NCBI GenBank assembly: GCA_002496385.1
Contig: DAJR01000027.1
Coordinates: forward strand, 1,155-65,154
Source of the DNA: Methanomassiliicoccales archaeon UBA147
Lineage (GTDB): Archaea > Thermoplasmatota > Thermoplasmata > SG8-5
DNA length: 64,000 bases
Direction: 5' to 3'
The number at the start of each line of letters is the position of its first letter. The first letter of the stretch is position 1. Made by a program: the position numbers and the translations under genes. Under the pieces are notes generated by a model that was given only the letters and a program-made list of their open reading frames with translations, made no database searches and had not been told where the DNA came from. Below are positions 12,423 to 43,090 of the stretch, piece by piece.

Positions 12423-12932
12423 ATGAGAGCTACGGTTGCGATAACTGTTCTGGCGATCTTCATGGTCATCGCCTCAATCGCATCGGCCAGCCCCGCCCTG
12501 AGCTCCCCCAAGGTCCTGCCAACCACAGGCACTTCGGGCGATGTTTTCACATTCACTGTTCATTACAAAGGGGATTCGCCGGTTTCCGTGACATTCTATG
12601 CCGACAATGCCCCTCTTGAGATGCAGGAAGTGGACCCCGGGGACCAGAATTACACCGATGGCAAGGACTATTTCATCCGTGTGAACCTGGAAGAAGGAAC
12701 AACCATTTATTATTTCAAGGCCACAACCGCCGCGGGCGAGGAAACGAGAACCGCCGCGACCACGATCAATGTCCAGCCTCCCGAAGGTTTGAGGGTCGAC
12801 CACATAGACGTCGTGCTGGCTGTCCTGATATTCCTCATTCCCACGGTGTGGGGTCTGGTCATGTTCCGGAGATTGTCAAAAGACCTTAGGGAGACAATGC
12901 AAATTCTGAAGGAGAGAAAAAAATCAGAATAG
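12423..12932 (+). CDS. Secreted, C-terminally membrane-anchored small protein (Ig-like ectodomain)
   Basis: Signal peptide MRATVAITVLAIFMVIASIASA. C-terminal TM VVLAVLIFLIPTVWGLVMF followed by a basic tail. Confidence 0.6.
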   Translation: MRATVAITVLAIFMVIASIASASPALSSPKVLPTTGTSGDVFTFTVHYKGDSPVSVTFYADNAPLEMQEVDPGDQNYTDGKDYFIRVNLEEGTTIYYFKATTAAGEETRTAATTINVQPPEGLRVDHIDVVLAVLIFLIPTVWGLVMFRRLSKDLRETMQILKERKKSE

Positions 12933-23550: not shown

Positions 23551-23558
23551 TTTATATA
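23551..23558 (+). promoter_or_regulatory. TATA-like box upstream of the giant gene
   Basis: gaaaattttatatac in an AT-rich spacer, about 115 nt upstream of ATG 23671. Confidence 0.3.
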
Positions 23559-23670
23559 CATCTTAGAGATATACGTTAGTCATCTATAAACAGTCAACAA
23601 AGCATCAATCGTATCGCCGGGCAGCATACAGTCTCTGGGCTAGTTGGCTGAGAGTGCAAAGGTGACAGAC

Positions 23671-24570
23671 ATGTCAAAGAAGGACCTTGAACGACAAGGC
23701 GATGGAGGAGGCGGGACAAAGCAGTGTCCGATATGCGGAGCCGAGAACGCTCCCGATGCATCAGAGTGCACGGGCTGCAGTTTCACGTTCGAAGCGGACG
23801 ATATCGTTGAGACGACCTCAGCGGCACCCGGTTCCGGCTCGACCGTTTGCAATGACTGCGGAGCGGAACTGCCCGCGGGAACAACCTCATGCTTCATTTG
23901 CGGGGCGGAAATAGGAACCCCTTCAACCGAAACAATCCCCGAGCCACCGGCCGAGGAAACGCCCCCGGAAGAAGAATGGGATGCGGGCGTTGTCGGCGGG
24001 GACGCTGAGCCGGCTCCGGAGGAAGTCACCGAAGAACCGGAAGAGATTCCCGAGCAACCGACGCCCGAATTGCCAGAGCTCGGAGAGAATGAGTTTCACT
24101 GTCCCTCATGCGGCAAGCCGATCGCCATGGGGACGTCCAAATGCCCGGAATGCTGGGCAGAGATACCCGAGATGATACGCTGCCCCAAATGCGACCATAC
24201 CATACCATTGAGTTCTGAGGTTTGCGCCGAGTGCTTCGCGAAGCTGAAGAACGGGGTTCTGATCGAAGAGCCGCCAGAGGAAATGCCCGAACCGGCAGAA
24301 TTGCCTGCGGAAGACCTGAACGGCGGCGAGCTGGAAGAGCACATCGACGAGGTTACCGAGATATATGGCGTTGAATGTCCGTTCTGCCATGAGATTGCCA
24401 ATCCAGGCGACGACATCTGCCCTGAGTGCGGAATGCCTCTCATCGAGCGCGAGGAACCGGCGGAAGAGGAACTCGCCCCCCGGAAGAAGCCGGAGAGGGA
24501 CTGGTACCGCATAATCGCCATCGGCGTGGTTGCAGTTCTGCTCGTTTCCGGTATACTGCCGTTCGCGATA
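23671..24570 (+). other. Predicted cytoplasmic head of the giant protein: five CxxC...CxxC zinc ribbons in acidic/proline-rich linkers, then a TM helix (24502-24570)
   Basis: The five ribbons are CPICGAEN..CTGC, CNDCGAEL..CFIC, CPSCGKPI..CPEC, CPKCDHTI..CAEC and CPFCHEIA..CPEC. The TM helix is WYRIIAIGVVAVLLVSGILPFAI. Confidence 0.75.
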
Positions 24571-27500
24571 CCGCTTCCCCATGTCGACAGGCTCCAGATT
24601 CGCATCGACGGCGCCTTCGGCGACTGGGACCAGGTATCAGGCCAGAACGATTCGGTACTCAGCACGCTCCCGGCCAATGTGGACATCGTGCAGAGCAAAA
24701 TGCTCTCTGACGCGTTCAATATCTATTTCTTTATGCAGGTGAGAGGCCAGGTTTTCGGAGACCAGGAAGGCGATACTGCCAGGATATTCATCGATACCGA
24801 CCAGGACCCCGCGACAGGCTACAGCATAATGGGCTTGGGAGCGGATTACCAGATACGCGTTTTCGGCCACGGCGGCGACGTCGAGAGCTCCTCATGCCTT
24901 GCATTTGACGATTCAAAGGCGCAGAATGATTTCAACGGCTTTGTTTCAGCATCGCCATCGGTACCTCATGCGCCCGAAGCGGTCCAGGATGCGGCCAAGT
25001 TCGAAGTGCGGGCTACGCTTGGGGACATCGGCATAACGCAAACCACCCCTGTGACCGCGGTGTTCTACATGGCGGATTCTCACGGCAACCGGGATTACTC
25101 GGACCTTCCGATTTCCAGCCTTGGCAGCGTCCTGTTTGTGAGGCAATCCAGCATCGCGCCCGCAAACGGCCTGATGACCGGCTCGGCCTCGCCGGCGATT
25201 TCGCTTGAGATTCATGCCATCGGGCAATCGGTTGACATAAACGGCATCACTGTGCCGAACTGCGCTCCGGGAACCTTTGTCAGGACGATGGCGAACGGCA
25301 CATCCCAGACCTTATCTCTGACAACCAGCGTCACCAGCCTGAGCGCCGGCTCACTGGTCGTGAGGGAAGCCGCCCCGGATGATTTCGATGTATCAGGTGC
25401 GCATGTGGTGGTCACCGGACAGGGCTCGTACTCGTATGCCGTGATGGCACCCGCTCTGATAGGCATTGACGGTGCATTCGCCGACTGGAACGGGAAAGGC
25501 ACGACCAACAGTGACAGGATTGACGACCAGCTTTCCAAGAACGGCATCGACTCGATTGACGATGCGGGACTGGACATGGTCAGCCAGACCACAGCGCGCG
25601 AGAACAATCAGCTAAACATCCTCGTGCAGACGAACGGCACGATGCTTGCTGGCATGTGGGTACCCGAGATAGAGGAAGCATATGTTGACACGGGCGCGAA
25701 CACAAGGTCGGAAGCGACCAAACCCGATTACACTTACACCGAGCCAGAGGTCTCCAAGACAAGGGCTCCGAACATCCAGAGGCCGACCGTGAAATCGGCC
25801 AAGACAGGCGAAGGCGCGGTGAACGTTTACCTGGACACGGACAACGACACCTCAACCGGATACTCTATCGAAGGAAGGGGCGCAGACTACCTGGTCAAGA
25901 TAAAGGGCCAGAATGGAAGGGTCACCGCCACAAGCATTTCCATATTCTCGGGCTCGGACCGGAATATGCCGAGCTGGACCCTCCAGGCCGGCCTTCCCCT
26001 GGGCGCGTCATCGGGCTCCGGTGTTGAGATCGGAATTCCCCTCGGGCTCTTCACGGGCATCACCCCGAACACAAGCGCGGTGATCCAGCTTGTCGACTGG
26101 AACCTCAACGGAGACGTCTCGGATATCTCAATGTGGGATGTTTTCGAGACCGGTACCAGGGCGGGAACCAGGGCGGACCCGGGTCTCCCCGGCTACGGCC
26201 ACCTTATGGGAACTCTCCTGACCTCCGGAAATGAATTCGTGCCAGGGGCAACCTTGGTACTTAAGGATTTAACTGGACGTGCCACCACCCGAATAACTGT
26301 CGAGAACACAATCGATAGCTATTCTATTGCCCAGGAAGTCTCGAAGGGGCTTCAGGTGAACATGTATGCAGTCAACAATACGCTCTACGGTGCAAACTCA
26401 ACGACATTGACCAACGACAAGACTTTGGCCAAATGTAATATCATGATGGGCAACCCCATACCGGCCGCAGCACCGACCGGGTTGGAGGCGAAGGTCTTTG
26501 GCGCTATTGGTGTGCGTCTCACATGGACGACAGGGGCCACTCCCACTTCTTTTAATATCTTCAAGACAACCAACACCACGACCTCTGCCGGCGATGTGAT
26601 GGGCAGGTATTACGGCATAAGCAGGTTGACCGGCATCTCCGGAACTGCCACGGAGTTCATAGACACCAACGTGGCCAATAACACGGTTTACTATTATTTC
26701 ATAGAATCGGTCACAGGCGCTCAGGTGCATTATTCCCAGGAGGTCAGCGTCACAGTAAATTACTCCGCCGTTCCAGTCATCACTCATCAACCGATCGCCG
26801 ATTGCACCGCATCCGTGGTGACTGTCAAAGCGACCGTCACGGATGATTCAGGTATTAAATTTGCCTCCGTGTTCTACAGGAAGGGCTCTTCCGGCGCCTG
26901 GACATCCGCGCCGATGACCCTGAGTTCGGGCTCTCCCTCAAACGGGAATTGGGTGGCAGGCATCCCCGTCGAGATGACGGACATCAACCAGCTCTATCAG
27001 TATTACCTGACGGCCGATGACGGCTCGAACCTCGGCATGTTCGGCGGGTCCGGCGCACCCGGATACCCGACGCCTTTCGGTTACAATGCCTCGTATGCAC
27101 CCAGCAACCCATTCCCAGTGTACGGTTATGTTTACCTGTATGACGGTACCTTTGCGGGCGGATTCGCACCTGTCCCGCAGCCCGGAGCGACCGTGACAGT
27201 GAGCTGGTACGACTTCTCAATGGCGGCGGTGAACACGACCTCGGATGTCACGAACGCCCTCGGGCAGTTCAGCATCGACCTCCACAACGGCGGGGTCGGC
27301 GACCCTCTGGGATACGGGATCGAGATAAGCTCGACCGCATCGACCGGCAATACAGGATACAACTGGACCGCCATAACCGACTGGAACATGACGGGCGGCA
27401 TCTGGATGAACGTGCTCTGCGGTGTCCCATACGATGTGATAATTACGAATCCTCTGGCTCTGCCAGTGCCCGCAGTCTCTGCCAACGTGCCATTCCCTGT

Positions 27501-36500: not shown

Positions 36501-39500
36501 ATACCCAGACGGGGTGACATTCCTGTCCGCGACTCCCGCACCCACGACAATTCCGAACTTCTGGTCAATCGGCAACGTGGCTCCTAACACAGGCGGCTCG
36601 ATCCAGATAACCGTTAGGGTGAACGCCACCGCTTTCGGAACACTGACGAATTATGCCATTCTCAATTACAGGAGCGGAGGAAGGATCATGCCATACGTCG
36701 AGGCCACCGCCCAAACTAAGGTCATGGACCCGATTCTCATCATAACAAAGGATGCCCCGACCGATGCAAACCAGGGCGAGACCATCACCTACACGATTAC
36801 CGTCCGGAACATCGGCTCGGACTTCGCCTACAATGTATGGGTGTTCGAGAACTACCCGGGCACGATATTCGAATCATCTATTCCGGCTCCAGCGTTCCCG
36901 TCCAACGATGTCTGGTACTTCGATTCCATAGCCAATGGTTCATTCGTTGTGATAACCATTACTGTAACTGTCCCGTTATCTGCTTCGGGCTATCTGGACA
37001 ATGCCGCTTACGTGGATTACTTCGACCTTGCCGGAGAGTCCCAGGACAGGGAATGGGCATACGCGTCCACCTATGTCACGGGACCGTCCCTGACAGTGGA
37101 CAAATGGGCCACGCCCTATGCCAATGCAGGGGATTATCTCACATACTGGATCAACATCACCAACACCGGGACCGGCTGGGCATACAATGTGATTGTCACG
37201 GAAACATACCCCGCTGGAATCACTTTCGTCTCCGCGATACCCGCGCCCAACCCGGGGAACACGACCTGGAACTTAGGCTCGATAGCACCGAACCACACGG
37301 TGAAGATTCAGATCACTGTGCAGGTGAATATCGGCACGGTCGGGATACTGGTGAACCGCGCGGATGTCGATTACGAGAACCAGATCGGCGTGGATTATAC
37401 CCCGGTATGGGACATTGCCGTCACCACTCTGGGTGAAATTCCGAACGTCATCATCCAGAAGACCGCACCGCAGTATGCGAATGCTGGCCAGACGATTAAT
37501 TACACCATATTTTACCATAACGCAGCCACGATTTGGGCAAACAATACATGGATAAACGAGACATATCCGTTCGGCGTCACCTATGTCCCGGTCGCCAACC
37601 CTGCCCCGTCAGTCGGCAACAACTGCTGGTTCATCGATGACCTGGCGCCCGGCCAATCCGGCTACATATTCATCAGTGTGACAGTGACCGGGGCTGTGTA
37701 TGGCACTCTCACGAACATGGCCAATATCGTATATTGGAACGGGAACCTCACAAGAAAATTCGAGAATTACGCCAGCGCCAACACCATTGTGAGGGACGCG
37801 CTCATGCAGGTTGACAAATCCGCGCCGGATACAGTGGCAATCAACCAGCAGTTCTTATACACGATCACATACACAAACATCGGAAACGATACCGCCTATG
37901 ATGTGTGGGTTGTGGATACCCTGCCGGGCGGCGTGAGCTTTGTCACATCTTCGATACCGCCGGATGCCAGCAGCGTTCCGCCGGTGTACCGCTGGCACTT
38001 TGCCTCAATCGCGCCCGGTGCTTCCGCCGGCATCACCATCACCGTCCAGGCCAATGTCGCCGGGGTGCAGGTGAACACAGTCACAATTGACTATGACAAC
38101 ACCCAGGGCGTTGCGCGTCCGCAGGTATCTGATTCCGCGACCACCGTCATCACAGGCCTAGCCACACCCTATGTCACAATTCAAAAATTCGCACCGGCCC
38201 AGGCTGTCACAGGCCAGGTAATCACCTATCTGATTACTTATCAAAACGTCGGGGACGGGATTGCCAACAATGTGGTGGTAACCGATACCCTGCCCCTTGG
38301 CGTGACATTCCTCAATGCCACACCGGCAGAAGATTCCATTGCAGGGCAACTGGTGACCTGGAACAACCTCGCTCCGATTGGCCCGGGCGTTTCCGGGACC
38401 ATCTTCGTGAATGTGACTGTCAACGCCCTCTCCGGCACATTGGCCAACCAGGCTAATGTAGTTTGGACCGGCGGCTCGAACGTCGCCTACGCCTACACAA
38501 CAATAGTCTCGCCTCTTATGCAAGTCACCAAAACAGTGAACGAGACAATGGCACAGAATGGCGAAACCCTCCACTACACGATAACCTACACCAATGTGGG
38601 AAGCGCCCCTGCCTACGACGTGACAATCGTGGACACGCTTCCGCCGGGTTCCTCCTACCTGGGCGCAACACCGCCATGGGACACCAGCGCCCCCCCGATG
38701 TACACATGGGTAATCCCGATCGTGCCGGCCGGGAGCAGCGGAACAATATTCCTCGATGCCCAGGTCAATGTTGTTTCTGGCACACTCACAAACAACGTCT
38801 CGCTGAACTATGACAATGCCATCGGGACTGCACAGCAGCCGGTTTACGCCGAGGCTACAACAGAGGTCACAGCGGTGGAACTGATATTGACCAAAACCAC
38901 GAGTTCCCTGGTTGCGGAACCTGGAACAGATATAACCTACTTCATCACTATTTTCAATGCCGGGCCGACTCCATTTACCTTTGCCAACGATGTCACCCTA
39001 AACGATTTCTACCCTGCCGGCACAATGTTTGTGACAGCTCAGTTAAAAATAAACAACGGCGGGTGGAATCCCGCACCGGCAAATGTATCCGTGGCAGGCC
39101 TTGACACATGGTACCTTTCCTCATGGCTCGGACCCATGCCGGCCTTCGACACTTGGACATTGCAGCTGATCGTGCACATTGACTGGATGGCCCCGGATGT
39201 GCTCGAGAACCGCGCGATGGTGAATTACACAGAATCCGGATTCGTGCACTTCCTCAATGCCACCGCCGTGACCACGATCAGCGGCCCCCTGATGGACATA
39301 ACCAAGACCTCCTCGATGAAATACGTCTCTCCGGGCCAGGAATTCATCTACACGATAAATTATGTGAACAACGGGCCTGGCCCGGCGCTGAACGTCACCA
39401 TAAGGGAATTCTACCCTGCCGGCCTGACCTTCCTGTCATCAATACCCGCCCCGAGCGAGGGGAACAATGTATGGCACCTCGGAACGATTGGCGGATTGAA

Positions 39501-42500
39501 CAATCCGCCCAACTCCGGCCAGATTATCATTCGGGTGAGGGTCAATGCCATGGCGGGAGGCGTCCTCACGAACCGCGCCACGCTGAACTACCAGAACATA
39601 TCCGGAGGCTGGATGCCCGAGGAGTCCGCCTTCAACACGACCACCGTGCTTACCGGCAACACCAGGATGTACATTGACAAGTCGGGACCGGCCACTGCCA
39701 CGACCGGCCAGTATGTAGAGTACACGATTTACTATCAGAACATCGGCACCGGGATGGCCCTGAATGTAGTCCTTGAGGACACTTTCCTCGCCTCTGACCT
39801 GTCATTCCTGAGCGCATCGCGGACACCGTCATACGGGGGCCCCGGCGACACGACGATAGGCTGGAACCTCGGAAACCTGGCCCCGCACGATAGCGGCACG
39901 ATAATCGTCAGATGCACCATAGGCCTTGCCCCGGGTCCTTCGGCTCAGAACTTTGCGACCATCTATTTCACAGATACCGTGGGCAACCCTGGCAGTATAT
40001 CGGACATGGCTTCTACTTGGATACACATCCCGGTACTGAATATAACAAAAGAAGGACCTGCCTTCGCAAACAGCGGCCAGTACATCACATATTGGATAAA
40101 TTACACGAACACAAATCCCATTGCGGCAGCATACAATGTGACGATTACGGAAACCTACTCCCTGAATGTCACCTATCTCATTGCCAATCCCCTTCCGACA
40201 ACAGGGACAAATGTCTGGTTCATCGGCACCGTGAGCCCCGGAGGAAGCGGGTCCATAATTATAACAGTCCGGGTGCTTGGGACTGTCGCCAACGGAGGCG
40301 CTGTTTTCAACTATGTCAATCTCGCCTATGAGAACATGGGCTACATCGCCCAGCCTGTTGAAAGTGCCTTTGTCACAACAACCATTTACAACCCCATATT
40401 GCAGGTCGGGAAGACCGGTCCGGCATCAGCCAACACGGGCCAGCTCATCAATTACACGATTACGCTCAACAACATCGGCGGAGCACCCGCTTACAATATC
40501 GAGATAGCCGATTTATATCCGTCCCAGGTGACTTACGTCGGCGCTTCGCTGACACCCAGCATAGGAAACAACAGGTGGCTCATACCTTTCCTGATAAACG
40601 GCGGGTCAATCCAGTTCAACATCACCGTCCGCATCGGATACTCTGTTACCCCGGGAATCACCATCCATAATGACGTGTTCGTCGACTACGAGGACGGGAA
40701 CGGAGGGGCAAAACCCCAGGAATGGGCCCGTGCCAGCACCCTGATAGTTGATCCTCTGCTCAGAGTGACAAAGACAGGGCCTGCCATCGCCAGTACAAAC
40801 CAGACAATCACCTATCTGATAACCGTCGAGAACTTTGGAAATGCAGATGCGTACAATATCCTGCTTAACGAATTGTACCCGTCCAACCAGACAGCCCGGT
40901 GGATCACCTTTGTCAATTCATCGCAATTCCCAACCGGAGCAGGTAACGACACTTGGACGATATTCTCGCTTGCCCCAGGCGCGACCTGGGTGCTGTGGAT
41001 AAATGTCACGGTCCTTGTGCAATGCGATATCAATAACACCGTGACAGTGGCCTACCGGGATTATCCGGGAGAAATCCAGGAACCCGTATCAGATTACTGG
41101 GTCACGACCATCGAGAATCCCTGCATGATAATTCGGAAGACTGCCAATGCTACGGCCGTTGCTGGGGGCTACATCCTCTACAACATCACCGCCGAGAACA
41201 TAGGAACAGGCAATGCCACAAATGTGATAGTGACCGAATATTACCCGGTCGGAACCGCCTTCGTATGGGCAAGCATCACGCCCACATCTGGAAACAACGA
41301 ATGGACATTCGCGAGCCTGCCTGTCGGGTTCATTGGATGGCTCAACATCCTCGTCAGGGTCAACGGGAACGCCGTTCCGGCTTCATTGCTGAACAACACG
41401 GTGCATTTCGCCTACCAGAACCAGGGCGGCATGCCGATGCCTCAATTGAACGTGTCAGCATCAACCAGGATCATCGGACCCTCAATACAAATACTGAAGT
41501 CCGCCCCGGGATATGTGGAAATAGGCCAGATATTCAACTACACCATCCAGTATTGGAACAACGGCACGGATTGGGCATACAATGTGGTGATCCGGGATAT
41601 CTATCCTTCAGCCCTTACAATACTCGGAACAGAACCGGCCCCGGCCACCATCCAGCTCGGCTACTATGAATGGACCGTATCGGCGATTGCTCCCGGTACC
41701 ACCGGAATAATCCGCATGACCGTGCTTGCAGACCGCGCCACCACACTCATTAACAATGCCTCGCTCTCGTACCGGAATGCGGCGAATCTGCTCTACCCCA
41801 CAATATTCTCCCTGGCCACAACCCAGGTGAGTTTGTTGCCCTACATCCTTCCCCCGGAGATAACCACCACGCCGCCCGAATTCGTATGGGCCGGGCAGAA
41901 TTTCACGCTTTACGCCGATGCATTGGGCATGGGTGCTGACATTGACACTGTCATCCTCTACTTCACCGACATCTCCGGAACAACCTGGTACAGCATCATG
42001 GTGCCCCTTCTGATAACCCTGAACGGCAGCGGCGTCTACAGCATTGTGATGCCGGCCCAGTCATTCAAGGGTTTCATCTCGTACTTTGTCTGGGTCAACG
42101 ATACCAATGGCAACGAGAACCGAACCGGCATTTACGATGTCGCGGTCAGATTGCCCCCCTATTTCGTATGGGGCAATATCTACTCCAACCGGGGCAACAT
42201 GGTTGCCAACGCCATCGTCCAAATCACTGACACGGTTACCAATGAGACGGTGATGGCCATAACAGATTCGGGCGGGCGGTACACGGTTGATTTGGCCACA
42301 TTGTATTCGGGATACATGAACGGCGAGAACCTTGTGGTGTACGCAACCGACGGCTCATTCTACGGAAGGAACGAATCCTTCATTGACCTTGATGGCTACG
42401 ACGATCTGACAATGGCTTTCCCCAACAGAAGGGTGAACGTCGTCCTTTCGGAAATCCCAGAATTCGCAACTATACTGGTGCCCTTGATCGGTTTGATGGT

Positions 42501-42558
42501 ATTGGTGGCGTTCCTCGAAAGAAGGAGGAGGAAGAGAGAGGATGCTGCCGTCATCTAG
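23671..42558 (+). CDS. Giant surface protein of about 6,295 aa. Order of parts: 5 N-terminal zinc ribbons, a TM anchor, mixed beta-domains, 39 DUF11-type repeats, an Ig-like plus CarboxypepD_reg-like module, and a PEF-CTERM.
   Basis: A single uninterrupted ORF. ATG 23671 (MSKKDL) is preferred over the TTG at 23644 used by the ORF track. The repeat consensus is K(T/S)(A/G)PxxANxGxxIxYT(I/L)xYxNxGxxxAYNVxIxETYPxGVTF...NxWx(I/L)GxLAPGxSGxIxIxVxV. Confidence 0.9.
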   Translation: MSKKDLERQGDGGGGTKQCPICGAENAPDASECTGCSFTFEADDIVETTSAAPGSGSTVCNDCGAELPAGTTSCFICGAEIGTPSTETIPEPPAEETPPEEEWDAGVVGGDAEPAPEEVTEEPEEIPEQPTPELPELGENEFHCPSCGKPIAMGTSKCPECWAEIPEMIRCPKCDHTIPLSSEVCAECFAKLKNGVLIEEPPEEMPEPAELPAEDLNGGELEEHIDEVTEIYGVECPFCHEIANPGDDICPECGMPLIEREEPAEEELAPRKKPERDWYRIIAIGVVAVLLVSGILPFAIPLPHVDRLQIRIDGAFGDWDQVSGQNDSVLSTLPANVDIVQSKMLSDAFNIYFFMQVRGQVFGDQEGDTARIFIDTDQDPATGYSIMGLGADYQIRVFGHGGDVESSSCLAFDDSKAQNDFNGFVSASPSVPHAPEAVQDAAKFEVRATLGDIGITQTTPVTAVFYMADSHGNRDYSDLPISSLGSVLFVRQSSIAPANGLMTGSASPAISLEIHAIGQSVDINGITVPNCAPGTFVRTMANGTSQTLSLTTSVTSLSAGSLVVREAAPDDFDVSGAHVVVTGQGSYSYAVMAPALIGIDGAFADWNGKGTTNSDRIDDQLSKNGIDSIDDAGLDMVSQTTARENNQLNILVQTNGTMLAGMWVPEIEEAYVDTGANTRSEATKPDYTYTEPEVSKTRAPNIQRPTVKSAKTGEGAVNVYLDTDNDTSTGYSIEGRGADYLVKIKGQNGRVTATSISIFSGSDRNMPSWTLQAGLPLGASSGSGVEIGIPLGLFTGITPNTSAVIQLVDWNLNGDVSDISMWDVFETGTRAGTRADPGLPGYGHLMGTLLTSGNEFVPGATLVLKDLTGRATTRITVENTIDSYSIAQEVSKGLQVNMYAVNNTLYGANSTTLTNDKTLAKCNIMMGNPIPAAAPTGLEAKVFGAIGVRLTWTTGATPTSFNIFKTTNTTTSAGDVMGRYYGISRLTGISGTATEFIDTNVANNTVYYYFIESVTGAQVHYSQEVSVTVNYSAVPVITHQPIADCTASVVTVKATVTDDSGIKFASVFYRKGSSGAWTSAPMTLSSGSPSNGNWVAGIPVEMTDINQLYQYYLTADDGSNLGMFGGSGAPGYPTPFGYNASYAPSNPFPVYGYVYLYDGTFAGGFAPVPQPGATVTVSWYDFSMAAVNTTSDVTNALGQFSIDLHNGGVGDPLGYGIEISSTASTGNTGYNWTAITDWNMTGGIWMNVLCGVPYDVIITNPLALPVPAVSANVPFPVTYRIVDINGVLAPGYFTFADGPMNWHSGDPLFVSPPDVYFDGTSSTTPGTWTGNLLLQTLGATYINVTENHLSDFYLTPFDAIAYQIGGVATPGYLKDWANLTLTVVGQSVFNLTKWAPAFANPGEIFSYWLNYSNEGTQWMYNVSISESYPPGVTFISSIPPPTIGTDYWFIGTIAPGGSNSIQIFVSVNMNATGTLTNTASITAPSITTVWAFANTTVINPLMTVKKSAPATANAGETMMYTIRYWNNGTDWAQNVWIYEDYPMNVNVLNATPMPTAWPGTWYIGDLAPGATGTIFVNVTVNAGFSGTLYNEVLLTYENDVVSMPDARAWANTTVNNPLLNVDKTAPATANSGAQIVYAIHIWNSGTATAFDVVVTDTLPAGTTYVPVATPPPSSVVGQTLTWTLPPIAPGASVWIYVTVQVSETATGTISNTVSVVYEDAAGQELGPVTDTATFAIADPLLTIQKVGPAYANSGQTITYTIWVNNTGSAPAYNITVTETYPADATFVSSNPPPSFGNNVWNISFLAAHGGTQISVTVLISATPGTVWQNNTVIADYEDGSNEDQADVTDVVTTILNNPQLTLAKTAPEFANPDQDITYTVTVTNIGSEPAYNVIVTESYPAGVSFVSANPAPTTPINVWNLGSIPVGGSITIVITVHINAGTTGLLTNTVAADYESSSGQDYHVTAYDTTMVTWPVMNIWKDGPANSTAGSTIMYTIHYQNLGSDTAYNVTITETYPADTTFLNANPTPTVGNNVWVIPSVAPGTGGVIFVNVTISSTATGMLVNSISAIYKNTDNQTMPEITNETYTFLTGPWMNLEKTGPATANTGETVIYTLHYWNSGDDTAYNVNITEIYPIEVTFVSANPPPTYGNNIWLIPTVAPGVHGWINITVTINDGVTGTVTNYVNLNYRNDADVQLPVETGNWTIIILDPLMIIEKVGPSEANPGQVIMYTITYQNIGLGAAYNVVITDTLDPGVSYVSSSPAGALAGQVLTWNIGTLVSGQGGTIFINVTVTATNGTIINTVSVDYDDAADEDQDDVEDTVVTTLINPFLIVEKEGPATAVPGQTITYWINGTNIGNDWAYDIWVNDTLPAGLTFLGSIPAFNTSFGSTYSWFIGYLAPGGKFSIQITAQVTATSGEIVNFANITFKNDADIVQPVIEIQTSPMAIVDCLILITKTAPETANTGEFITYTIAYINVGLSTAYNVVITDTLPIDVTYYSSIPSGTVIGQVIAWNIGTLAPYASGSIQVTVQVNEGLPIDTELINNVVVTYENGGNIVNQTSDFNITTVIDPLVEITKWAPPTGAPGGILTYLVNYTNSGNDTAYNVVITETYPTGVTFLDANPMPNNPPTNTVWNLGNLAPGASGTIFINVTISTTAGGTLVNTVQIICENDADVEFTDQDTVNTPIVGPYVQIVKTGPANAAPGDTISYTITYSNTGPGIAYNVRVYDTLPAGVAFVNAIASGILQTAGPPTWVWWFGNLAPGASGTIVITVTVNADATLLINNASVEYYTDPGFVNKIINNCTFTTVVNSPLLTIEKTANATACTGQIITYEITVTNTGSNVANNVIVTENYPDGVTYLIAVPLPTSGNNVWNLSQIKGISMPVGAVWTITVTLRVNATAIGVLHNAVNVRYWNQANAVMPVVWAYADTTIVNPLLTIDKTAPAEANTGELITYTLTVTNVGTAPAFNIWVNESYPPGVTYVSSNILPINFGGDNDSWYIPSLAVGAPFTITITVRVDALTGTLTNWAFVNYTNFADMPLTEVDDFAITTIVNPIMGITKWAPATANPGQTFTYWINYTNTGDGWAYNVVITETYPAGVSFVSSTPDPSSGNNVWNFGPLASGATGSIQITVQVLAGTVGWVLNNSARLDFQNQAGIPQLTISAWAVTNVVQPAMTVIKTGPATATQGQTILYTIFYQNTGNDIAYNVIITDAVPLGVSFVNSTPNPTSPGVWVIGNLAPGASGYIYITATIGAATTGIITNWAYVNYKNRIIPLDQVGDSALTTIIVPRMTITKTAPDYANTGETITYTISYQNLAAVAAYNVVITDTLPVGVTYVSSTPPGSAAGQTVTWNVGILGPGASGTITVNVIVTATDGTLTNTVRASYRNQYSVVYPVVWDTDSTIIINPIITVEKSAPATANTGQNIEYVIWVNNTGTDIAYNVTITETYPVGVIFVFAFPVPTSSNNVWNLGNLAPGTATPIFITVTVNATGLLVNSAEARFNNYVGIPQTPVTDTASTLVGDPLMFIQKTAPLNANPGQTIMYTIRYWNNGTAPAYNVIITETYPAGVTFLNANPMPGNPPTNTVWTIPTVPSHGSGVIFINVTISATATGFIENNVLLAYTDAANNPKPSVTDQAITVLTGPYVLLTKTGPGYANPGQIIMYTVTYRNIGTDTAYNVWINETYPAFVTFLNATPAPTTGNNAWNLGNLAPGAFGTIFINVTVAATATGTIHNNVTAVFRNSVGEQFSSDATWPTIILEPVMQIVKTGPAGANPGATITYWINYTNTGSDWAYDVTITETYPTGVTYYTAIPLPTTGNNVWNVGSLAPGASGSIQITVTIGLAVTGSITNTVRVDYDNQAGRAMVPVTATFVTLIVNPLLSLEKTAWTVLPGTVFPNEIFTYQIIYTNIGGGWAYDVRITESFPTGVTFLDATPPPTFGNQWLVGPLAPGASGSILITVRVNSGATGTLLNNITANYENSLGEMPPVYAELALQVIAPRLQITKTAPATANTGQDIVYRIWVNNTGNAWATDIILTETYPASVTFIEAVPVPTVQNTVWYVPDLGPGGSWFVEITVRVNLDAYGTLLNSVAVTFRDMADQSYGPVLAQAMTLIQDPMVTISKTGPATANPGQVIMYTITYENIGTAPANVIITETYPASVTFLNATPMPGNPENTIWNIGSVAPSTGGTIFINVTVSVTASGTLTNIVVLDYSSATRDFKSKQAVWNTTIVEPDMTLSKTAPAQANSGQTITYWLNYFNEGTDWAYNVTVTETYPDGVTFLSATPAPTTIPNFWSIGNVAPNTGGSIQITVRVNATAFGTLTNYAILNYRSGGRIMPYVEATAQTKVMDPILIITKDAPTDANQGETITYTITVRNIGSDFAYNVWVFENYPGTIFESSIPAPAFPSNDVWYFDSIANGSFVVITITVTVPLSASGYLDNAAYVDYFDLAGESQDREWAYASTYVTGPSLTVDKWATPYANAGDYLTYWINITNTGTGWAYNVIVTETYPAGITFVSAIPAPNPGNTTWNLGSIAPNHTVKIQITVQVNIGTVGILVNRADVDYENQIGVDYTPVWDIAVTTLGEIPNVIIQKTAPQYANAGQTINYTIFYHNAATIWANNTWINETYPFGVTYVPVANPAPSVGNNCWFIDDLAPGQSGYIFISVTVTGAVYGTLTNMANIVYWNGNLTRKFENYASANTIVRDALMQVDKSAPDTVAINQQFLYTITYTNIGNDTAYDVWVVDTLPGGVSFVTSSIPPDASSVPPVYRWHFASIAPGASAGITITVQANVAGVQVNTVTIDYDNTQGVARPQVSDSATTVITGLATPYVTIQKFAPAQAVTGQVITYLITYQNVGDGIANNVVVTDTLPLGVTFLNATPAEDSIAGQLVTWNNLAPIGPGVSGTIFVNVTVNALSGTLANQANVVWTGGSNVAYAYTTIVSPLMQVTKTVNETMAQNGETLHYTITYTNVGSAPAYDVTIVDTLPPGSSYLGATPPWDTSAPPMYTWVIPIVPAGSSGTIFLDAQVNVVSGTLTNNVSLNYDNAIGTAQQPVYAEATTEVTAVELILTKTTSSLVAEPGTDITYFITIFNAGPTPFTFANDVTLNDFYPAGTMFVTAQLKINNGGWNPAPANVSVAGLDTWYLSSWLGPMPAFDTWTLQLIVHIDWMAPDVLENRAMVNYTESGFVHFLNATAVTTISGPLMDITKTSSMKYVSPGQEFIYTINYVNNGPGPALNVTIREFYPAGLTFLSSIPAPSEGNNVWHLGTIGGLNNPPNSGQIIIRVRVNAMAGGVLTNRATLNYQNISGGWMPEESAFNTTTVLTGNTRMYIDKSGPATATTGQYVEYTIYYQNIGTGMALNVVLEDTFLASDLSFLSASRTPSYGGPGDTTIGWNLGNLAPHDSGTIIVRCTIGLAPGPSAQNFATIYFTDTVGNPGSISDMASTWIHIPVLNITKEGPAFANSGQYITYWINYTNTNPIAAAYNVTITETYSLNVTYLIANPLPTTGTNVWFIGTVSPGGSGSIIITVRVLGTVANGGAVFNYVNLAYENMGYIAQPVESAFVTTTIYNPILQVGKTGPASANTGQLINYTITLNNIGGAPAYNIEIADLYPSQVTYVGASLTPSIGNNRWLIPFLINGGSIQFNITVRIGYSVTPGITIHNDVFVDYEDGNGGAKPQEWARASTLIVDPLLRVTKTGPAIASTNQTITYLITVENFGNADAYNILLNELYPSNQTARWITFVNSSQFPTGAGNDTWTIFSLAPGATWVLWINVTVLVQCDINNTVTVAYRDYPGEIQEPVSDYWVTTIENPCMIIRKTANATAVAGGYILYNITAENIGTGNATNVIVTEYYPVGTAFVWASITPTSGNNEWTFASLPVGFIGWLNILVRVNGNAVPASLLNNTVHFAYQNQGGMPMPQLNVSASTRIIGPSIQILKSAPGYVEIGQIFNYTIQYWNNGTDWAYNVVIRDIYPSALTILGTEPAPATIQLGYYEWTVSAIAPGTTGIIRMTVLADRATTLINNASLSYRNAANLLYPTIFSLATTQVSLLPYILPPEITTTPPEFVWAGQNFTLYADALGMGADIDTVILYFTDISGTTWYSIMVPLLITLNGSGVYSIVMPAQSFKGFISYFVWVNDTNGNENRTGIYDVAVRLPPYFVWGNIYSNRGNMVANAIVQITDTVTNETVMAITDSGGRYTVDLATLYSGYMNGENLVVYATDGSFYGRNESFIDLDGYDDLTMAFPNRRVNVVLSEIPEFATILVPLIGLMVLVAFLERRRRKREDAAVI
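27838..41850 (+). repeat. 39 tandem DUF11-type ('conserved repeat domain') units of about 120 aa each
   Basis: I segmented the translation by hand into 39 consecutive units (14,013 nt / 39 = about 120 aa). The units are diverged from one another at the amino-acid level. Confidence 0.85.
42454..42558 (+). other. PEF-CTERM archaeosortase sorting signal
   Basis: ...SEIPEF-ATILVPLIGLMVLVAFL-ERRRRKRED. This is a PEF tripeptide, a hydrophobic helix and a basic cluster at the extreme C-terminus. Confidence 0.7.
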
Positions 42559-43090
42559 AATCGCCATTGCATCATTTGTCGTATGCATCCTAATGATATC
42601 CGCCGTTCCGGGGGAATCCGTGGCAATTCCTTACAAGATAGAGGGGTACCTTAACGACGGTGAAGGCCTTCCAATCACTCTTGCCAATATATCCATCACC
42701 GGCGAAGTGTACGATATCGGGGTACAGGACATGGTCAGCCAGACCTGGTACCGCACGACCGACGCATACGGCAAATACGTGATATACCTGGCAGCGAATG
42801 AGCCGGGCGGCCTGTTCATGAATTCCACAGTCACGGTTTCGTATCGTTCCGGAGACGACATTGTCAGCAGGGATGTGACCATCTCAGGCCTTTCGGTTTG
42901 GGCTAATTTGACTTACAAAGAGAGTCTTGGCCTGGGGGATTACCTGATGTCTCCCATAGGCATACTGATTATCGTGATTCTGATAGTGGCTGTGATGATA
43001 GGGTTCTATATTTCCAAATCTGAATCGCCTGAAGAAGTAAAAGACTCCGAACAGTCAAAACGAGTCGAGAAGCGAAGGCGAAGGAATTGA
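42542..43090 (+). CDS. Small secreted, C-terminally anchored protein with a CarboxypepD_reg-like beta-sandwich
   Basis: The ATG lies 17 nt inside the end of the giant gene. Signal peptide IAIASFVVCILMISAVPGESVA. The segment YKIEGYLNDGEGLPITLANISI...DAYGKYVIYL is present, and there is a C-terminal TM plus KRRRR. Confidence 0.7.
   Translation: MLPSSRIAIASFVVCILMISAVPGESVAIPYKIEGYLNDGEGLPITLANISITGEVYDIGVQDMVSQTWYRTTDAYGKYVIYLAANEPGGLFMNSTVTVSYRSGDDIVSRDVTISGLSVWANLTYKESLGLGDYLMSPIGILIIVILIVAVMIGFYISKSESPEEVKDSEQSKRVEKRRRRN

What the first reader, a model, noticed from the sequence alone, without database searches (positions are those of the whole stretch)
23671..42558. An 18.9-kb single gene: a roughly 6,295-aa protein predicted to be anchored at both ends
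The reading frame is uninterrupted for 18.9 kb. The predicted topology, in order, is:
- a cytoplasmic zinc-ribbon head of about 277 aa;
- one TM helix acting as a signal anchor, with no cleavable signal peptide that I can see;
- about 6,000 aa of extracellular beta-domains;
- a PEF-CTERM.

If the archaeosortase replaces the C-terminal helix with a lipid anchor, as shown for PGF-CTERM substrates, the mature protein would be tethered at both termini. That would make it a loop or strap rather than a free fibre. Assuming roughly 4 nm per Ig-like domain, which is an assumption and not a measurement, the 39 repeats alone could span more than 150 nm.
Basis: partly seen in the sequence, partly recalled or inferred. 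Interest (0 to 1): 0.8.

Follow-up and report, generated by a model that had tools for sequence, protein, structure and literature searches.

The report
Giant two-ended archaeal surface fibre protein
This is one real 18.9-kb gene of an uncultured Thermoplasmata archaeon, encoding a 6,295-residue surface fibre of 39 probably self-crosslinking domains, with a zinc-binding head predicted to lie inside the cell at one end and a sorting/lipid-anchor signal at the other; the two-ended design recurs in many relatives (57 of the 161 examined) within a protein family of over 2,000 clusters and does not appear in the literature I searched.

Summary
One open frame (ATG 23671 to stop 42558) encodes 6,295 aa. 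The order is: five Cys4 zinc ribbons (aa 19-253), a hydrophobic anchor (aa 281-305), about 1,080 aa of unannotated beta domains, 39 DUF11/"CLIPPER" repeats, then an I-P-E-F + helix + RRRRKR tail.

Mis-assembly is very unlikely. Repeats are only 49% identical at DNA level, and the longest exact repeat is 22 nt. 33 of 39 repeats are collinear with a 6,273-aa orthologue from another assembly.

38 of 39 repeats keep the Lys/Asp-Glu/Asn isopeptide triad shown crystallographically for this domain in 2025.

An N-in orientation is supported by charge bias (89 of 101 family members, p = 2e-16) and by the Cys and glycosylation-sequon distribution.

An ArtC-like archaeosortase with its own C4HC3 zinc finger lies about 9 kb upstream, in conserved synteny.

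The tail (18.6 bits against a cutoff of 23) and the enzyme (56.5 against 100) both score below the curated model cutoffs.

That the mature protein stays tethered at both ends is plausible but untested.

The stalk and the sorting signal are known kinds. The cytoplasmic head plus signal-anchor on an archaeosortase substrate, shared by a family of more than 2,000 clusters, appears undescribed. Verdict: a new variant of a known kind, of moderate to high interest.

The parts
23671..42558 (+). Single CDS, 6,295 aa plus stop: the giant surface protein
   Evidence: uninterrupted frame, with 352 and 126 stops in the other forward frames. AGGTGA lies 5 nt upstream of the ATG.
23671..24510 (+). Head, aa 1-280, predicted cytoplasmic: five Cys4 zinc ribbons (C19-C36, C60-C77, C144-C161, C171-C188, C236-C253) joined by acidic Pro/Glu-rich linkers
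   Evidence: Pfam DZR 61.3 bits, DZR_2 48.9 bits. All Cys pairs, an E[DE]WDxGxxGG motif and KPERDWYR are conserved in L004, L005, L006, P0002 and P0004. Net charge -51, 0 sequons, 20 Cys.
24511..24585 (+). TM1, aa 281-305: 25-residue uncharged signal-anchor, predicted N-in
   Evidence: Kyte-Doolittle 2.69. K+R is 5 on the N-side and 2 on the C-side. Family-wide the N-side is higher in 89 of 101 proteins, p = 2e-16, and the median uncharged length is 24.
24586..27822 (+). Non-repeat ectodomain next to TM1, aa 306-1384: two 'IDGxFxDW' beta-sandwich modules with an Ig-like domain between them, further beta domains, and one partial CLIPPER copy (aa 1311-1366)
   Evidence: No Pfam hit. AF2 model of aa 303-640: pLDDT 84.2, pTM 0.78, all-beta. 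Only weak fold matches, TM <= 0.35, to CBM74, NxrC and glucodextranase. This is the module shared by 2,129 cluster representatives. The IDG motif starts 27-33 aa after the TM start in about 20 relatives.
27823..41832 (+). Stalk: 39 tandem DUF11/CLIPPER domains (aa 1385-6054), period about 118 aa
   Evidence: Pfam PF01345 868.6 and 704.2 bits, 20 + 19 stretches. My own profile finds 39 full repeats. Mean pairwise identity is 38% for protein and 49% for DNA. The K/(D,E)/N triad is present in 38 of 39. Lys and the acid align to 9IFR.
41833..42453 (+). C-terminal non-repeat beta domains, aa 6055-6261 (Ig-like plus CarboxypepD_reg-like)
   Evidence: CarboxypepD_reg 23.4 bits, below its cutoff of 32.3. 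58-62% identical to the C-termini of P0025 and P0068.
42454..42555 (+). PEF-type tripartite sorting signal, aa 6262-6295: IPEF-x5-P, an 18-residue hydrophobic helix, then RRRRKR
   Evidence: TIGR03024 18.6 bits, E = 0.0016, below the cutoff of 23. It fits the lineage motif seen in 39 tails.
13844..14998 (-). ArtC-like archaeosortase, 384 aa, with a C-terminal C4HC3 zinc-finger tail; candidate processing enzyme
   Evidence: TIGR04178 59.9 bits (cutoff 23). TIGR03762 ArtC 56.5 bits (cutoff 100, not met). Conserved GLSC(T/S)G, ANIxR and HNNIGE motifs and the tail pattern C-x2-C-x12-C-x-C-x4-H-x2-C-x7-C-x2-C. Relatives are named 'archaeosortase C (PEF-CTERM variant)' by JGI. The tail occurs in 42 of 74 relatives. 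Synteny in L004, L005 and L053.
12924..13757 (-). Ras/Roc-family small GTPase, always adjacent to the archaeosortase
   Evidence: Pfam Ras 102.3 bits. It is adjacent to the archaeosortase in L001, L004, L005, L053 and L054.
17341..20286 (+). Conserved upstream secreted protein 1, 981 aa: signal peptide, Big_5, no C-terminal anchor
   Evidence: Positional counterparts in L004, L005 and L052.
20498..23455 (+). Conserved upstream secreted protein 2, 985 aa: signal peptide, no Pfam hit
   Evidence: Counterparts in L004, L005, L006 and L052.
42542..43090 (+). 182-aa membrane protein whose start overlaps the giant's last 17 nt; probably translationally coupled
   Evidence: The same 182-aa gene overlaps the stop of P0002 in L052.
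43100..46384 (+). 1,094-aa protein with a signal peptide, CarboxypepD_reg repeats and a C-terminal TM plus basic tail (no PEF); conserved downstream partner
   Evidence: The 1,090-aa counterpart in L052 is likewise followed directly by ProRS.

Best explanation
This is one genuine gene for a giant envelope protein of a Thermoplasmata archaeon. Shown by sequence: a 280-aa acidic head with five Cys4 zinc ribbons; a 25-residue signal-anchor; about 1,080 aa of beta-sandwich modules; a stalk of 39 CLIPPER (DUF11) domains, 38 of which show the aligned Lys/Asp-Glu/Asn triad (in the 39th the Lys is offset by one column); two C-terminal beta domains; and a PEF-type tripartite sorting signal. Inferred mechanism: the ribosome makes the head in the cytoplasm; the signal-anchor then engages Sec with its N-terminus inside; about 5,960 residues are threaded out; and the C-terminal helix with its RRRRKR tail stops transfer. 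The nascent protein is therefore a two-helix hairpin with a 6,000-residue external loop. The CLIPPER domains fold outside and probably autocatalyse one intradomain isopeptide bond each, giving a stalk resistant to proteases and to tension. The nearby ArtC-like archaeosortase then probably cleaves at IPEF and, by analogy with ArtA, replaces the helix with a lipid. Most likely both tethers persist, so the mature protein is a long membrane-to-membrane strap or loop. On the assumed 4 nm per domain its stalk contour is about 150-200 nm. Its cytoplasmic zinc-ribbon head would couple it to an intracellular partner. It is one extreme member of a large Thermoplasmata family (cytoplasmic head, TM, IDGxFxDW module, variable ectodomain, PEF tail) that plausibly builds the unordered exterior protein layer of these archaea, whose Thermoplasmatales relatives lack an S-layer.
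For: Gene reality. The repeats are diverged and the longest exact repeat is 22 nt. Repeats are collinear with L004 and L005 and with the complete 6,273-aa P0025, 33 of 39 in order. Five other complete giants have the same ends. Head: Pfam DZR, and the Cys pairs are conserved at about 50% identity. N-in orientation: family-wide K+R bias, p = 2e-16, with a median 24-residue uncharged stretch; the head has 0 sequons and 20 Cys, the ectodomain 121 sequons (88 +/- 8 expected) and 13 Cys. The N-terminal TM can act as a stand-alone anchor: about 580-aa relatives have a zinc ribbon, a TM and the IDG module with no C-terminal anchor, and heads reach 1,062 aa with zinc ribbons, NG repeats and HhH/TPR segments, which is hard to reconcile with a disposable signal peptide. 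Stalk: PF01345 at 868.6 and 704.2 bits; triad in 38 of 39 repeats; alignment to 9IFR; crystallographic isopeptide bond in DUF11 (PMC12617251). Tail: IPE[FY]-x5-P + helix + basic cluster in 39 relatives. Enzyme: exo/archaeosortase signature at 59.9 bits with the Cys and Arg motifs; relatives are annotated ArtC; synteny is conserved in four genomes. Lipid anchoring by ArtA: PMC6098224. A roughly 20-nm unordered exterior protein layer in Thermoplasmatales: PMC12448462.
Against: The curated PEF-CTERM model (18.6 bits against 23) and the ArtC model (56.5 against 100) are both missed. No experiment on any ArtC/PEF-CTERM pair turned up in the literature I could search, so lipidation is by analogy only. 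No dedicated signal-peptide or topology predictor was available, so cleavage after TM1 (for example after ...LLVSG or ...LPFA) cannot be excluded. The domain order, with non-repeat modules that could be binding domains at the N-terminus, then the stalk, then the anchor signal at the C-terminus, is exactly that of ordinary fibrillar adhesins whose N-terminal tip is free. A loop has no obvious 'business end'. There is no expression, proteomic or imaging evidence. The CLIPPER fold could not be confirmed structurally (the single-sequence AF2 run failed), and the C-terminal Asn of the triad is matched to 9IFR only by spacing, not by a printed alignment.
Confidence: 0.5

Rival explanations
1. It is an ordinary C-terminally anchored fibrillar adhesin. 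The zinc-ribbon head plus TM serves only as an unusually long export signal or pro-region and is cut off after translocation, by signal peptidase or another membrane protease. The IDGxFxDW modules would then be a free distal adhesive tip, and the protein would be held only by the PEF-derived anchor.
For: The domain order (non-repeat N-terminal modules, repeat stalk, C-terminal sorting signal) is the canonical fibrillar-adhesin layout described for DUF11 proteins. The module after TM1 gives weak fold hits to carbohydrate-binding modules: CBM74 and a glucodextranase domain. The constant 27-33-aa spacing from the TM start to the IDG motif would also fit a conserved cleavage site just before the first domain. 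Small residues occur near the end of TM1 (VSG, PFA).
Against: Heads are large (median TM start at residue 182, up to 1,062 aa), are built from several domains, and are conserved, which is unlike n-regions of signal peptides. Minimal relatives with a zinc ribbon, TM and IDG module have no other anchor, so there the TM is the only plausible tether. The uncharged stretch is of anchor length, 25 aa here and a median of 24 in the family. Pro at position -3 of the PFA|I site is unfavourable by the classical -3/-1 rule (my own knowledge). Cleavage would leave a zinc-ribbon stub in the membrane with no evident role.
Confidence: 0.22
2. It is a fibre anchored at the N-terminus only. The PEF helix is a transient stop-transfer element and sorting handle. 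The archaeosortase cleaves it without attaching a lipid, or transfers the C-terminus to another acceptor such as a glycan or another envelope protein. The C-terminal Ig/CarboxypepD_reg domains then become the free or cross-linked distal end of a fibre about 200 nm long, rooted by TM1 and the zinc-ribbon head.
For: Lipid attachment is demonstrated only for ArtA/PGF-CTERM; other archaeosortase classes are merely categorised. The enzyme here is a distinct subclade with an extra C4HC3 finger and scores below the ArtC cutoff. The N-terminal cassette alone anchors the minimal relatives. Two conserved secreted proteins upstream and two conserved membrane proteins downstream could be partners or acceptors.
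Against: The only characterised archaeosortase lipidates its substrates, and the tripartite signal here is of the same type. No acceptor is known. If processing failed, the helix itself would still anchor the C-terminus.
Confidence: 0.15
3. It is not a real single gene, but an assembly artefact (repeat expansion or chimera), or a pseudogene or fusion of several genes.
For: It comes from a metagenome assembly, and read mapping could not be done. Long repeat arrays are a classic source of mis-assembly, and one relative, P0068, does have near-identical repeats of up to 97% identity.
Against: In this gene repeat DNA identity peaks at 64% and the longest exact repeat is 22 nt. There is no stop in 18.9 kb while the other frames have 126-352. 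33 of 39 repeats match a 6,273-aa orthologue in order. Both ends and the flanking genes are conserved in four genomes. The head, TM and tail are under visible purifying selection.
Confidence: 0.02

Closest known systems
Archaeal DUF11/'CLIPPER' stalk proteins with archaeosortase sorting signals (Protein Sci 2025, PMC12617251; PDB 9IFR)
   Same: The stalk is tandem PF01345 domains with the Lys/Asp/Asn isopeptide triad. They are surface proteins, and the paper notes C-terminal archaeosortase (ArtA/B/C-type) signals in Methanobacteriati.
   Different: That survey was capped at 1,280 aa by the AlphaFold database and describes the usual layout with a signal peptide. Here the protein is 6,295 aa with 39 domains, and in place of a signal peptide it has a 280-aa cytoplasmic five-zinc-ribbon head plus a signal-anchor.
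ArtA/PGF-CTERM substrates of Haloferax volcanii, such as the S-layer glycoprotein
   Same: A C-terminal tripartite signal (short motif, helix, basic tail); an exosortase/archaeosortase-family enzyme with conserved Cys and Arg; and removal of the helix with lipid attachment as the model mechanism.
   Different: The motif is different (IPEF-x5-P, not PGF) and the enzyme subfamily is different (ArtC-like with a C4HC3 finger). There is no experimental evidence for this pair. From my own knowledge, ArtA substrates use cleavable Sec or Tat signals, not a cytoplasmic head plus anchor.
ArtC/PEF-CTERM system (Haft, Payne and Selengut 2012; TIGR03762/TIGR03024)
   Same: The best-matching archaeosortase subfamily and the best-matching sorting-signal model. 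Relatives of the enzyme are annotated 'archaeosortase C (PEF-CTERM variant)'.
   Different: Both curated cutoffs are missed (56.5 against 100; 18.6 against 23). The enzyme carries about 75 extra C-terminal residues forming a zinc finger that lies outside the ArtC model. The lineage is Thermoplasmata rather than the Methanosarcinales-type genomes in which I recall the system being defined (own knowledge; the paper was not available).
Gram-positive sortase-anchored isopeptide-stalk adhesins and pilins (CnaA/CnaB-type)
   Same: A tandem Ig-like stalk stabilised by intradomain isopeptide bonds, and a C-terminal motif + helix + basic tail processed by a membrane transpeptidase.
   Different: The processing enzyme is unrelated, the target would be a lipid rather than peptidoglycan, the organism is an archaeon, and the N-terminus is a cytoplasmic domain plus anchor rather than a cleaved signal peptide.
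Bacterial N-terminal zinc-ribbon + TM + ectodomain membrane proteins, such as S. aureus TcaA
   Same: One or more N-terminal zinc ribbons followed directly by a single TM and an extracellular domain. There is a weak NCBIfam hit of aa 235-292 to the N-terminus of TcaA (23.3 bits, far below the cutoff of 550).
   Different: There is no homology beyond the ribbon and TM. Here there are five ribbons, a 6,000-aa ectodomain and a second, C-terminal anchoring signal.
GhpA 'grappling hook' protein of Aureispira (PDB 9FLP, 5,898 aa)
   Same: A giant surface fibre of similar size containing CLIPPER-like domains; it is the best solved-structure hit for the N-terminal half of the repeat (E = 1.8e-7).
   Different: It is bacterial, only a few domains match, the overall architecture and anchoring are different, and no homology of the ends was detected.

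Membership tests
DUF11 / CLIPPER (Pfam PF01345; TIGR01451) | HMM match above the curated cutoff | tested here: met
   PF01345 scores 868.6 and 704.2 bits (cutoff 24.6), with 20 + 19 stretches. TIGR01451 scores 537.4 and 421.3 bits (cutoff 24).
DUF11 / CLIPPER (Pfam PF01345; TIGR01451) | Lys / Asp(Glu) / Asn isopeptide triad at the positions seen in 9IFR (K715, D748, N806) | tested here: met
   K, D/E and N columns are present in 38 of 39 repeats; the 39th has its Lys one column away. Lys aligns with the Lys of 9IFR 'VVKTT', and the acid with the Asp of 'LNDTL'. By my count from the printed alignment that Asp is Lys+34 in the chain, whereas the paper's numbering gives Lys+33; this is unresolved. 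The Asn is matched only by spacing (84 against 91) and by the full-profile hit covering positions 1-97; the C-half profile did not reach 9IFR.
DUF11 / CLIPPER (Pfam PF01345; TIGR01451) | CnaA-like Ig fold | tested here: inconclusive
DUF11 / CLIPPER (Pfam PF01345; TIGR01451) | Isopeptide bond actually formed | not testable with these tools
   Needs mass spectrometry or crystallography of recombinant repeats.
PEF-CTERM sorting signal (TIGR03024) | HMM match above the curated cutoff | tested here: not met
   18.6 bits, E = 0.0016 on the isolated tail, against a cutoff of 23. There is no Pfam hit on the tail.
PEF-CTERM sorting signal (TIGR03024) | Tripartite architecture at the extreme C-terminus: P-E-F motif, hydrophobic helix, basic cluster | tested here: met
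   IPEF-ATILV-P, an 18-residue uncharged helix, RRRRKR, ending 13 aa later. The same I-P-E-[FY]-x5-P motif occurs in 39 related tails.
PEF-CTERM sorting signal (TIGR03024) | Co-occurrence with an archaeosortase C gene in the genome | tested here: inconclusive
   An archaeosortase-family gene lies about 9 kb upstream in conserved synteny. It is ArtC-like but scores below the ArtC cutoff.
PEF-CTERM sorting signal (TIGR03024) | Cleavage and lipid attachment by the archaeosortase | not testable with these tools
   Experimental data exist only for ArtA/PGF-CTERM.
Archaeosortase C (TIGR03762), applied to gene 13844-14998 | Subfamily HMM above the cutoff | tested here: not met
   56.5 bits against a cutoff of 100. 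It is nevertheless the best-scoring subfamily, and relatives up to 71% identical are annotated ArtC by JGI.
Archaeosortase C (TIGR03762), applied to gene 13844-14998 | Exosortase/archaeosortase signature and conserved catalytic-type Cys and Arg motifs, polytopic membrane protein | tested here: met
   TIGR04178 59.9 bits (cutoff 23) and PF09721 32.7 bits (25.7). GLSC(T/S)G, ANIxR and HNNIGE are conserved, with 8-9 hydrophobic segments. The SCxG motif occurs in 71 of 74 relatives and NxxR in all 74.
Fibrillar adhesin (as used in PMC12617251) | Long stalk of tandem repeat domains plus a surface-anchoring signal | tested here: met
   39 CLIPPER repeats plus a PEF-type tail.
Fibrillar adhesin (as used in PMC12617251) | Cleavable N-terminal signal peptide and a free distal adhesive domain | tested here: not met
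   The N-terminus is hydrophilic with zinc ribbons, and the first hydrophobic segment is at aa 281. The module after TM1 has no assignable binding family. Whether it is freed by cleavage is untested.
Double zinc ribbon (Pfam PF12773 DZR) | HMM above the cutoff with paired CxxC motifs | tested here: met
   61.3 bits (cutoff 27.3), 3 stretches, with ten CxxC motifs in five pairs.

The most novel reading that the evidence does not exclude
Thermoplasmata possess a large, undescribed class of trans-envelope 'strap' proteins. Each has a cytoplasmic head (zinc ribbons and/or x-[T/V/I]-N-G repeats), a signal-anchor, a membrane-proximal IDGxFxDW module, an interchangeable ectodomain of up to 40 isopeptide-locked CLIPPER domains, and a PEF tail that a dedicated zinc-finger-bearing archaeosortase converts into a lipid anchor. 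The mature proteins would be tethered at both ends. Together they would form the unordered exterior protein layer seen in the S-layer-less Thermoplasmatales. They would be mechanically or regulatorily coupled to the cytoplasm through their heads, possibly via the enzyme's own zinc finger or the co-conserved Ras-like GTPase.
Probability: 0.25. Interest if true: 0.85.

Novelty: new variant of a known kind. Interest (0 to 1): 0.6.

Why it matters
Three things would follow if this holds.

1. It would be the first described class of archaeosortase substrates with a substantial cytoplasmic domain and a second, N-terminal membrane anchor. That changes the picture of these proteins from 'secreted, then C-terminally lipid-anchored' to 'spanning from cytoplasm to surface and back'.

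2. It offers concrete candidates, in a family of more than 2,000 sequence clusters, for the molecular make-up of the unordered exterior protein layer of S-layer-less Thermoplasmatales relatives (the envelope of this MAG lineage is unknown), whose components are not known. It also suggests a route for linking that layer to the cytoplasm.

3. A chain of 39 predicted isopeptide-locked domains, inherited repeat by repeat between species, is a natural system for studying how very long mechanically stable fibres are exported and maintained in archaea. The domains could also serve as stable protein-engineering modules. The pairing of a zinc-finger-tailed ArtC-like enzyme with zinc-ribbon-headed substrates gives a directly testable hypothesis about how the enzyme recognises its substrates.

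Tried and rejected
- **Single-sequence AF2 of two tandem repeats.** It gave pLDDT 39.6 and is unusable.
- **phmmer of one repeat against the PDB.** Only noise came back; the repeat is too diverged from 9IFR.
- **Full repeat profile against the PDB.** The top 27 hits were designed armadillo/importin repeats, made by summing many weak 'WnlGnlA.G' stretches with none individually significant. I rejected them as artefacts.
- **C-terminal half-profile.** It did not reach 9IFR, so the Asn alignment is not shown residue by residue.
- **Pfam on the isolated tail and on aa 303-1350.** No family was found.
- **Fold search of the module after TM1.** It returned only generic beta-sandwich matches with TM <= 0.35, so I made no family assignment; 'CBM-like' is a hint only.
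- **Haft et al. 2012 (PMC3256604).** The paper is not held, so statements about the original ArtC/PEF-CTERM definition rest on reviews and my own knowledge.
- **Equating the neighbouring Ras-like GTPase with the vesiculation GTPase ArvA.** Rejected: its neighbours are the archaeosortase and a 169-aa ORF with no Pfam match, so there is no ArvB/ArvC, and its best Pfam families are Ras and Roc.
- **Literature search for archaeosortase + zinc ribbon.** It found only two unrelated cell-division papers.
- **My first regex for the triad in other giants.** It undercounted P0068, whose 102-aa subtype still has K/D/N in its consensus.
Full report
**Observation.**
The window contains an open frame at 23644..42558 on the + strand, 6,304 codons long. 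The first ATG is at 23671, with AGGTGA ending 5 nt upstream of it. The other two forward frames of the same 18.9 kb carry 352 and 126 stops.

A simple hydropathy scan finds only two strongly hydrophobic 19-residue windows in the whole protein, at aa 281-299 and aa 6264-6282. All ten CxxC motifs lie in aa 19-253 and form five pairs, and Pfam recognises them as double zinc ribbons (DZR 61.3 bits against a cutoff of 27.3). Upstream of the gene there is a terminator-like hairpin plus T-run (23477-23498 and following), directly after the previous gene, and an AT-rich stretch with TTTATATA at 23551-23558. That is consistent with the gene having its own promoter, but I read it by eye and did not test it.

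**Is it an assembly artefact?**
Read mapping was not possible, but three independent arguments make mis-assembly very unlikely.

- The 39 repeats are old and diverged. Mean pairwise identity is 38% for protein and 49% for DNA, the maximum DNA identity is 64%, and the longest exact direct repeat anywhere in the CDS is 22 nt. An assembler has nothing to collapse or expand.
- The array is orthologous repeat by repeat in other genomes. Window repeats 1-27 match repeats 2-28 of two Thermoplasmata MAG loci (L004, L005) in order at 55-79% identity. Against the complete 6,273-aa protein P0025 (40 repeats, same N-terminus as L005), 33 of 39 window repeats map in strictly increasing order across the whole array at a mean 59% identity.
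- Four more complete giants (6,763, 6,085, 5,189 and 5,227 aa) have the same zinc-ribbon N-terminus and IPE[FY] tail.

The flanking genes are also conserved: two secreted proteins of about 560-1,025 aa upstream, then downstream a 182-aa gene overlapping the stop codon, a gene of about 1,090 aa, and ProRS.

**Organism and context.**
The closest genomic relatives are uncultured Thermoplasmata / Methanomassiliicoccales-type MAGs. The window's own archaeosortase sequence occurs only on metagenome contigs.

**The stalk.**
Pfam PF01345 (DUF11) matches with 868.6 and 704.2 bits over 20 + 19 stretches, and my own profile finds 39 full repeats plus one partial copy, with a period of about 118 aa.

DUF11 was renamed 'CLIPPER' in 2025. 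Its crystal structure 9IFR shows a CnaA-like fold with a Lys715-Asn806 intramolecular isopeptide bond and Asp748. The same paper notes DUF11 stalks in archaeal surface proteins carrying archaeosortase signals (PMC12617251).

In the window, Lys, Asp/Glu and Asn occupy the corresponding columns in 38 of 39 repeats, and in the 39th the Lys is offset by one column. A half-profile aligns the invariant Lys with the Lys of 9IFR 'VVKTT' and the acid with the Asp of 'LNDTL'. The Asn is matched only by spacing. So the stalk is a known kind of domain, here in an unusually long chain, and each domain is predicted, not shown, to lock itself covalently.

In relatives the stalk is plastic:

- The positional orthologue P0002 has 5 repeats in 2,224 aa.
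- P0068 keeps end regions 51-62% identical to the window's but has replaced most of the stalk with a recently amplified 102-aa subtype whose copies are up to 97% identical.

**The C-terminal signal and its enzyme.**
The tail reads IPEF-ATILV-P, then an 18-residue uncharged helix, then RRRRKR. The curated PEF-CTERM model scores 18.6 bits, below its cutoff of 23, and Pfam finds nothing. However, 39 tails of related proteins share a tight motif: I-P-E-[F/Y]-x5-P, a helix, and a basic cluster a median of 18 residues after PEF.

About 9 kb upstream, at 13844-14998 on the minus strand, lies an exosortase/archaeosortase-family gene. It scores 59.9 bits on TIGR04178 (cutoff 23). Its best subfamily is ArtC at 56.5 bits, below the cutoff of 100. 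It has conserved GLSC(T/S)G, ANIxR and HNNIGE motifs. Relatives up to 71% identical are annotated 'archaeosortase C (PEF-CTERM variant)' by JGI.

The block Ras-like GTPase / archaeosortase / epimerase sits upstream of the giant in L004 and L005. In the genome of the short orthologue it is separated only by one inserted 2,061-aa gene.

Unexpectedly, the enzyme ends in a conserved eight-ligand C4HC3 zinc finger that lies outside the ArtC model. This tail is present in 42 of 74 relatives, including 40 of the 41 closest, and is absent (no Cys at all) from 31 others.

**Topology.**
No dedicated predictor was available, so I used sequence statistics.

- Around TM1 the window has 5 K/R in the 15 residues on the N-side and 2 on the C-side.
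- Across 101 N-complete family members the means are 4.26 and 1.47. The N-side is higher in 89 proteins (Wilcoxon p = 2e-16), and the uncharged stretch has a median of 24 residues, which is anchor-like.
- The head has 20 Cys, no N-x-S/T sequon and a net charge of -51.
- The 5,958-aa ectodomain has 13 Cys and 121 sequons, against 88 +/- 8 in composition-preserving shuffles.
- The RRRRKR after the last helix places the C-terminus inside.

**The N-terminal cassette is a lineage-wide feature.**
This is the main addition to the finding. The stretch after TM1 has no Pfam family. An AF2 model of aa 303-640 is confident (pLDDT 84, pTM 0.78), all-beta and two-domain. It gives only weak fold matches, with TM <= 0.35, to CBM74, NxrC and a glucodextranase domain.

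A profile of this region finds 2,129 cluster representatives at E <= 1e-3 and 698 at E <= 1e-30 among 1.84 billion proteins.

- 101 are N-complete with a TM just before an 'IDGxFxDW' motif.
- In 87 of those the pre-TM head exceeds 40 aa (median TM start at residue 182, maximum 1,062).
- 49 have at least two CxxC motifs in the head.
- 66 carry runs of a previously unannotated x-[T/V/I]-N-G repeat.
- 105 of the 161 end in the PEF-x5-P tail, and 57 combine a long head with that tail.

The IDG motif starts 27-33 residues after the TM start in about 20 inspected members. Minimal members of about 580 aa have one zinc ribbon, a TM and the IDG module with no C-terminal anchor. In those the N-terminal helix must be the anchor. 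Ectodomains vary: CLIPPER here, FG-GAP and Laminin_G in P0006.

**Mechanism and rivals.**
The steps, with their status, are:

1. Head made in the cytoplasm: inferred from the Cys4 ribbons and the composition.
2. Signal-anchor insertion N-in, and export of the loop: inferred from the charge bias.
3. Stop-transfer by the PEF helix: inferred.
4. Autocatalytic isopeptide formation in each CLIPPER domain: inferred from the conserved triad and 9IFR.
5. Cleavage at IPEF and lipid attachment by the ArtC-like enzyme: by analogy with ArtA only.
6. Persistence of both tethers: inference.

I give the double-tether reading about 0.5. The main rival (0.22) is that TM1 and the head are removed, giving a canonical C-anchored adhesin with the IDG modules as the tip. 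The domain order favours this reading, but the size, conservation and variety of the heads and the minimal cassette proteins argue against it. A second rival (0.15) is that the archaeosortase releases or transfers the C-terminus, leaving a fibre anchored at the N-terminus. An artefact is about 0.02.

As context, S-layer-less Thermoplasmatales are covered by an unordered exterior protein layer about 20 nm thick, of unknown composition (PMC12448462). This family is a reasonable candidate source for such a layer, but that is speculation, and those organisms are a different order.

**Comparison with what is known, and novelty.**
Known: CLIPPER stalks in archaeal surface proteins with archaeosortase signals; the ArtC/PEF-CTERM pairing as a bioinformatic class; and lipid anchoring by ArtA.

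Not found in the searchable literature:

- archaeosortase substrates with a cytoplasmic zinc-ribbon or NG-repeat head and an N-terminal signal-anchor;
- an archaeosortase subclade with a zinc-finger tail;
- the IDGxFxDW family;
- giants of this type (the 2025 survey was capped at 1,280 aa).

I therefore rate it a new variant of a known kind, with interest 0.6. The gene's size alone is not exceptional; from my own knowledge, larger archaeal and bacterial surface proteins are known. The two-ended architecture, its breadth across a lineage, and the matching zinc modules on enzyme and substrate would surprise a specialist and are directly testable.

Noticed in passing
window 13844-14998 (-), aa 333-370 of the product: The ArtC-like archaeosortase ends in a conserved eight-ligand C4HC3 zinc finger (C-x2-C-x12-C-x-C-x4-H-x2-C-x7-C-x2-C) that lies outside the ArtC model. 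It is present in 42 of 74 relatives, including 40 of the 41 closest, while 31 others have no Cys at all in the tail. Enzyme and substrate thus both carry zinc modules that read as cytoplasmic.
   Followed up: partly
loci L008-L048; proteins P0006, P0008, P0017, P0018 (pre-TM regions): Long runs of a short repeat x-[T/V/I]-N-G (for example 'grtngltngsgrgrtng', 'glvngnglvng', 'gringtkgringtkg') fill the N-terminal heads, predicted cytoplasmic, of most paralogues: 66 of 101 have at least four copies. They occur alone or after zinc ribbons, have no Pfam family, and are absent from the giant's own subfamily. Their function is unknown.
   Followed up: partly
window 12924-13757 (-): A Ras/Roc-family small GTPase (Pfam Ras 102 bits) is directly adjacent to the archaeosortase in every locus seen (window, L001, L004, L005, L053, L054). 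It has no ArvB/ArvC neighbours, so I did not equate it with the vesiculation GTPase ArvA.
   Followed up: partly
window 42542-43090, 43100-46384 and 46386-47783 (+): A 182-aa membrane-protein gene starts 17 nt before the giant's stop codon. It is followed 9 nt later by a 1,094-aa membrane-protein gene (signal peptide, CarboxypepD_reg repeats, C-terminal TM), and 1 nt after that by prolyl-tRNA synthetase. The same tight order is found beside the 2,224-aa orthologue in L052, which suggests one operon that includes ProRS.
   Followed up: partly
protein P0068 (5,227 aa), units 2-33: This relative keeps end regions 51-62% identical to the window protein's, but most of its stalk is a 102-aa CLIPPER subtype whose copies are up to 97% identical (mean 61% over all units), so it was amplified recently. 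The stalks are rebuilt while the ends are kept. For that protein, unlike the window's, assembly accuracy would be a real concern.
   Followed up: partly
window 17341-20286 and 20498-23455 (+): Two proteins of about 980 aa with signal peptides and no membrane anchor (one has Big_5 and a weak lamin-tail hit, the other no Pfam hit) sit immediately upstream of the giant in all four genomes examined. They could be secreted partners of the giant.
   Followed up: no
window 9626-10459 (-): A 277-aa tubulin-superfamily protein matches FtsZ at 159 bits, well below the equivalog cutoff of 295, and only over the N-terminal GTPase part. It may be a CetZ-like or truncated paralogue, and lies a few kb from the archaeosortase block.
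   Followed up: no
window 23477-23498 and 23551-23558: A GC-rich hairpin (gcctgcgcc-ggaa-ggcgcaggc) followed by a T-rich run lies directly after the upstream gene, and a TTTATATA box lies about 115 nt before the giant's ATG. Together they suggest the giant starts its own transcription unit. I read this by eye and did not test it.
   Followed up: no
window 48140-49708 (+): A 522-aa protein with a SAP/Rho_N-like N-terminus (weak hit) and a C-terminal CxxC...CxxC pair has a conserved position after ProRS in L052 (526 aa). Its function is unknown.
   Followed up: no
PDB 9FLP (GhpA, 5,898 aa) against the repeat N-half profile: The best solved-structure hit for the first half of the repeat is the Aureispira 'grappling hook' protein (E = 1.8e-7). 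CLIPPER-like domains therefore occur in another giant surface fibre whose structure has been solved.
   Followed up: no
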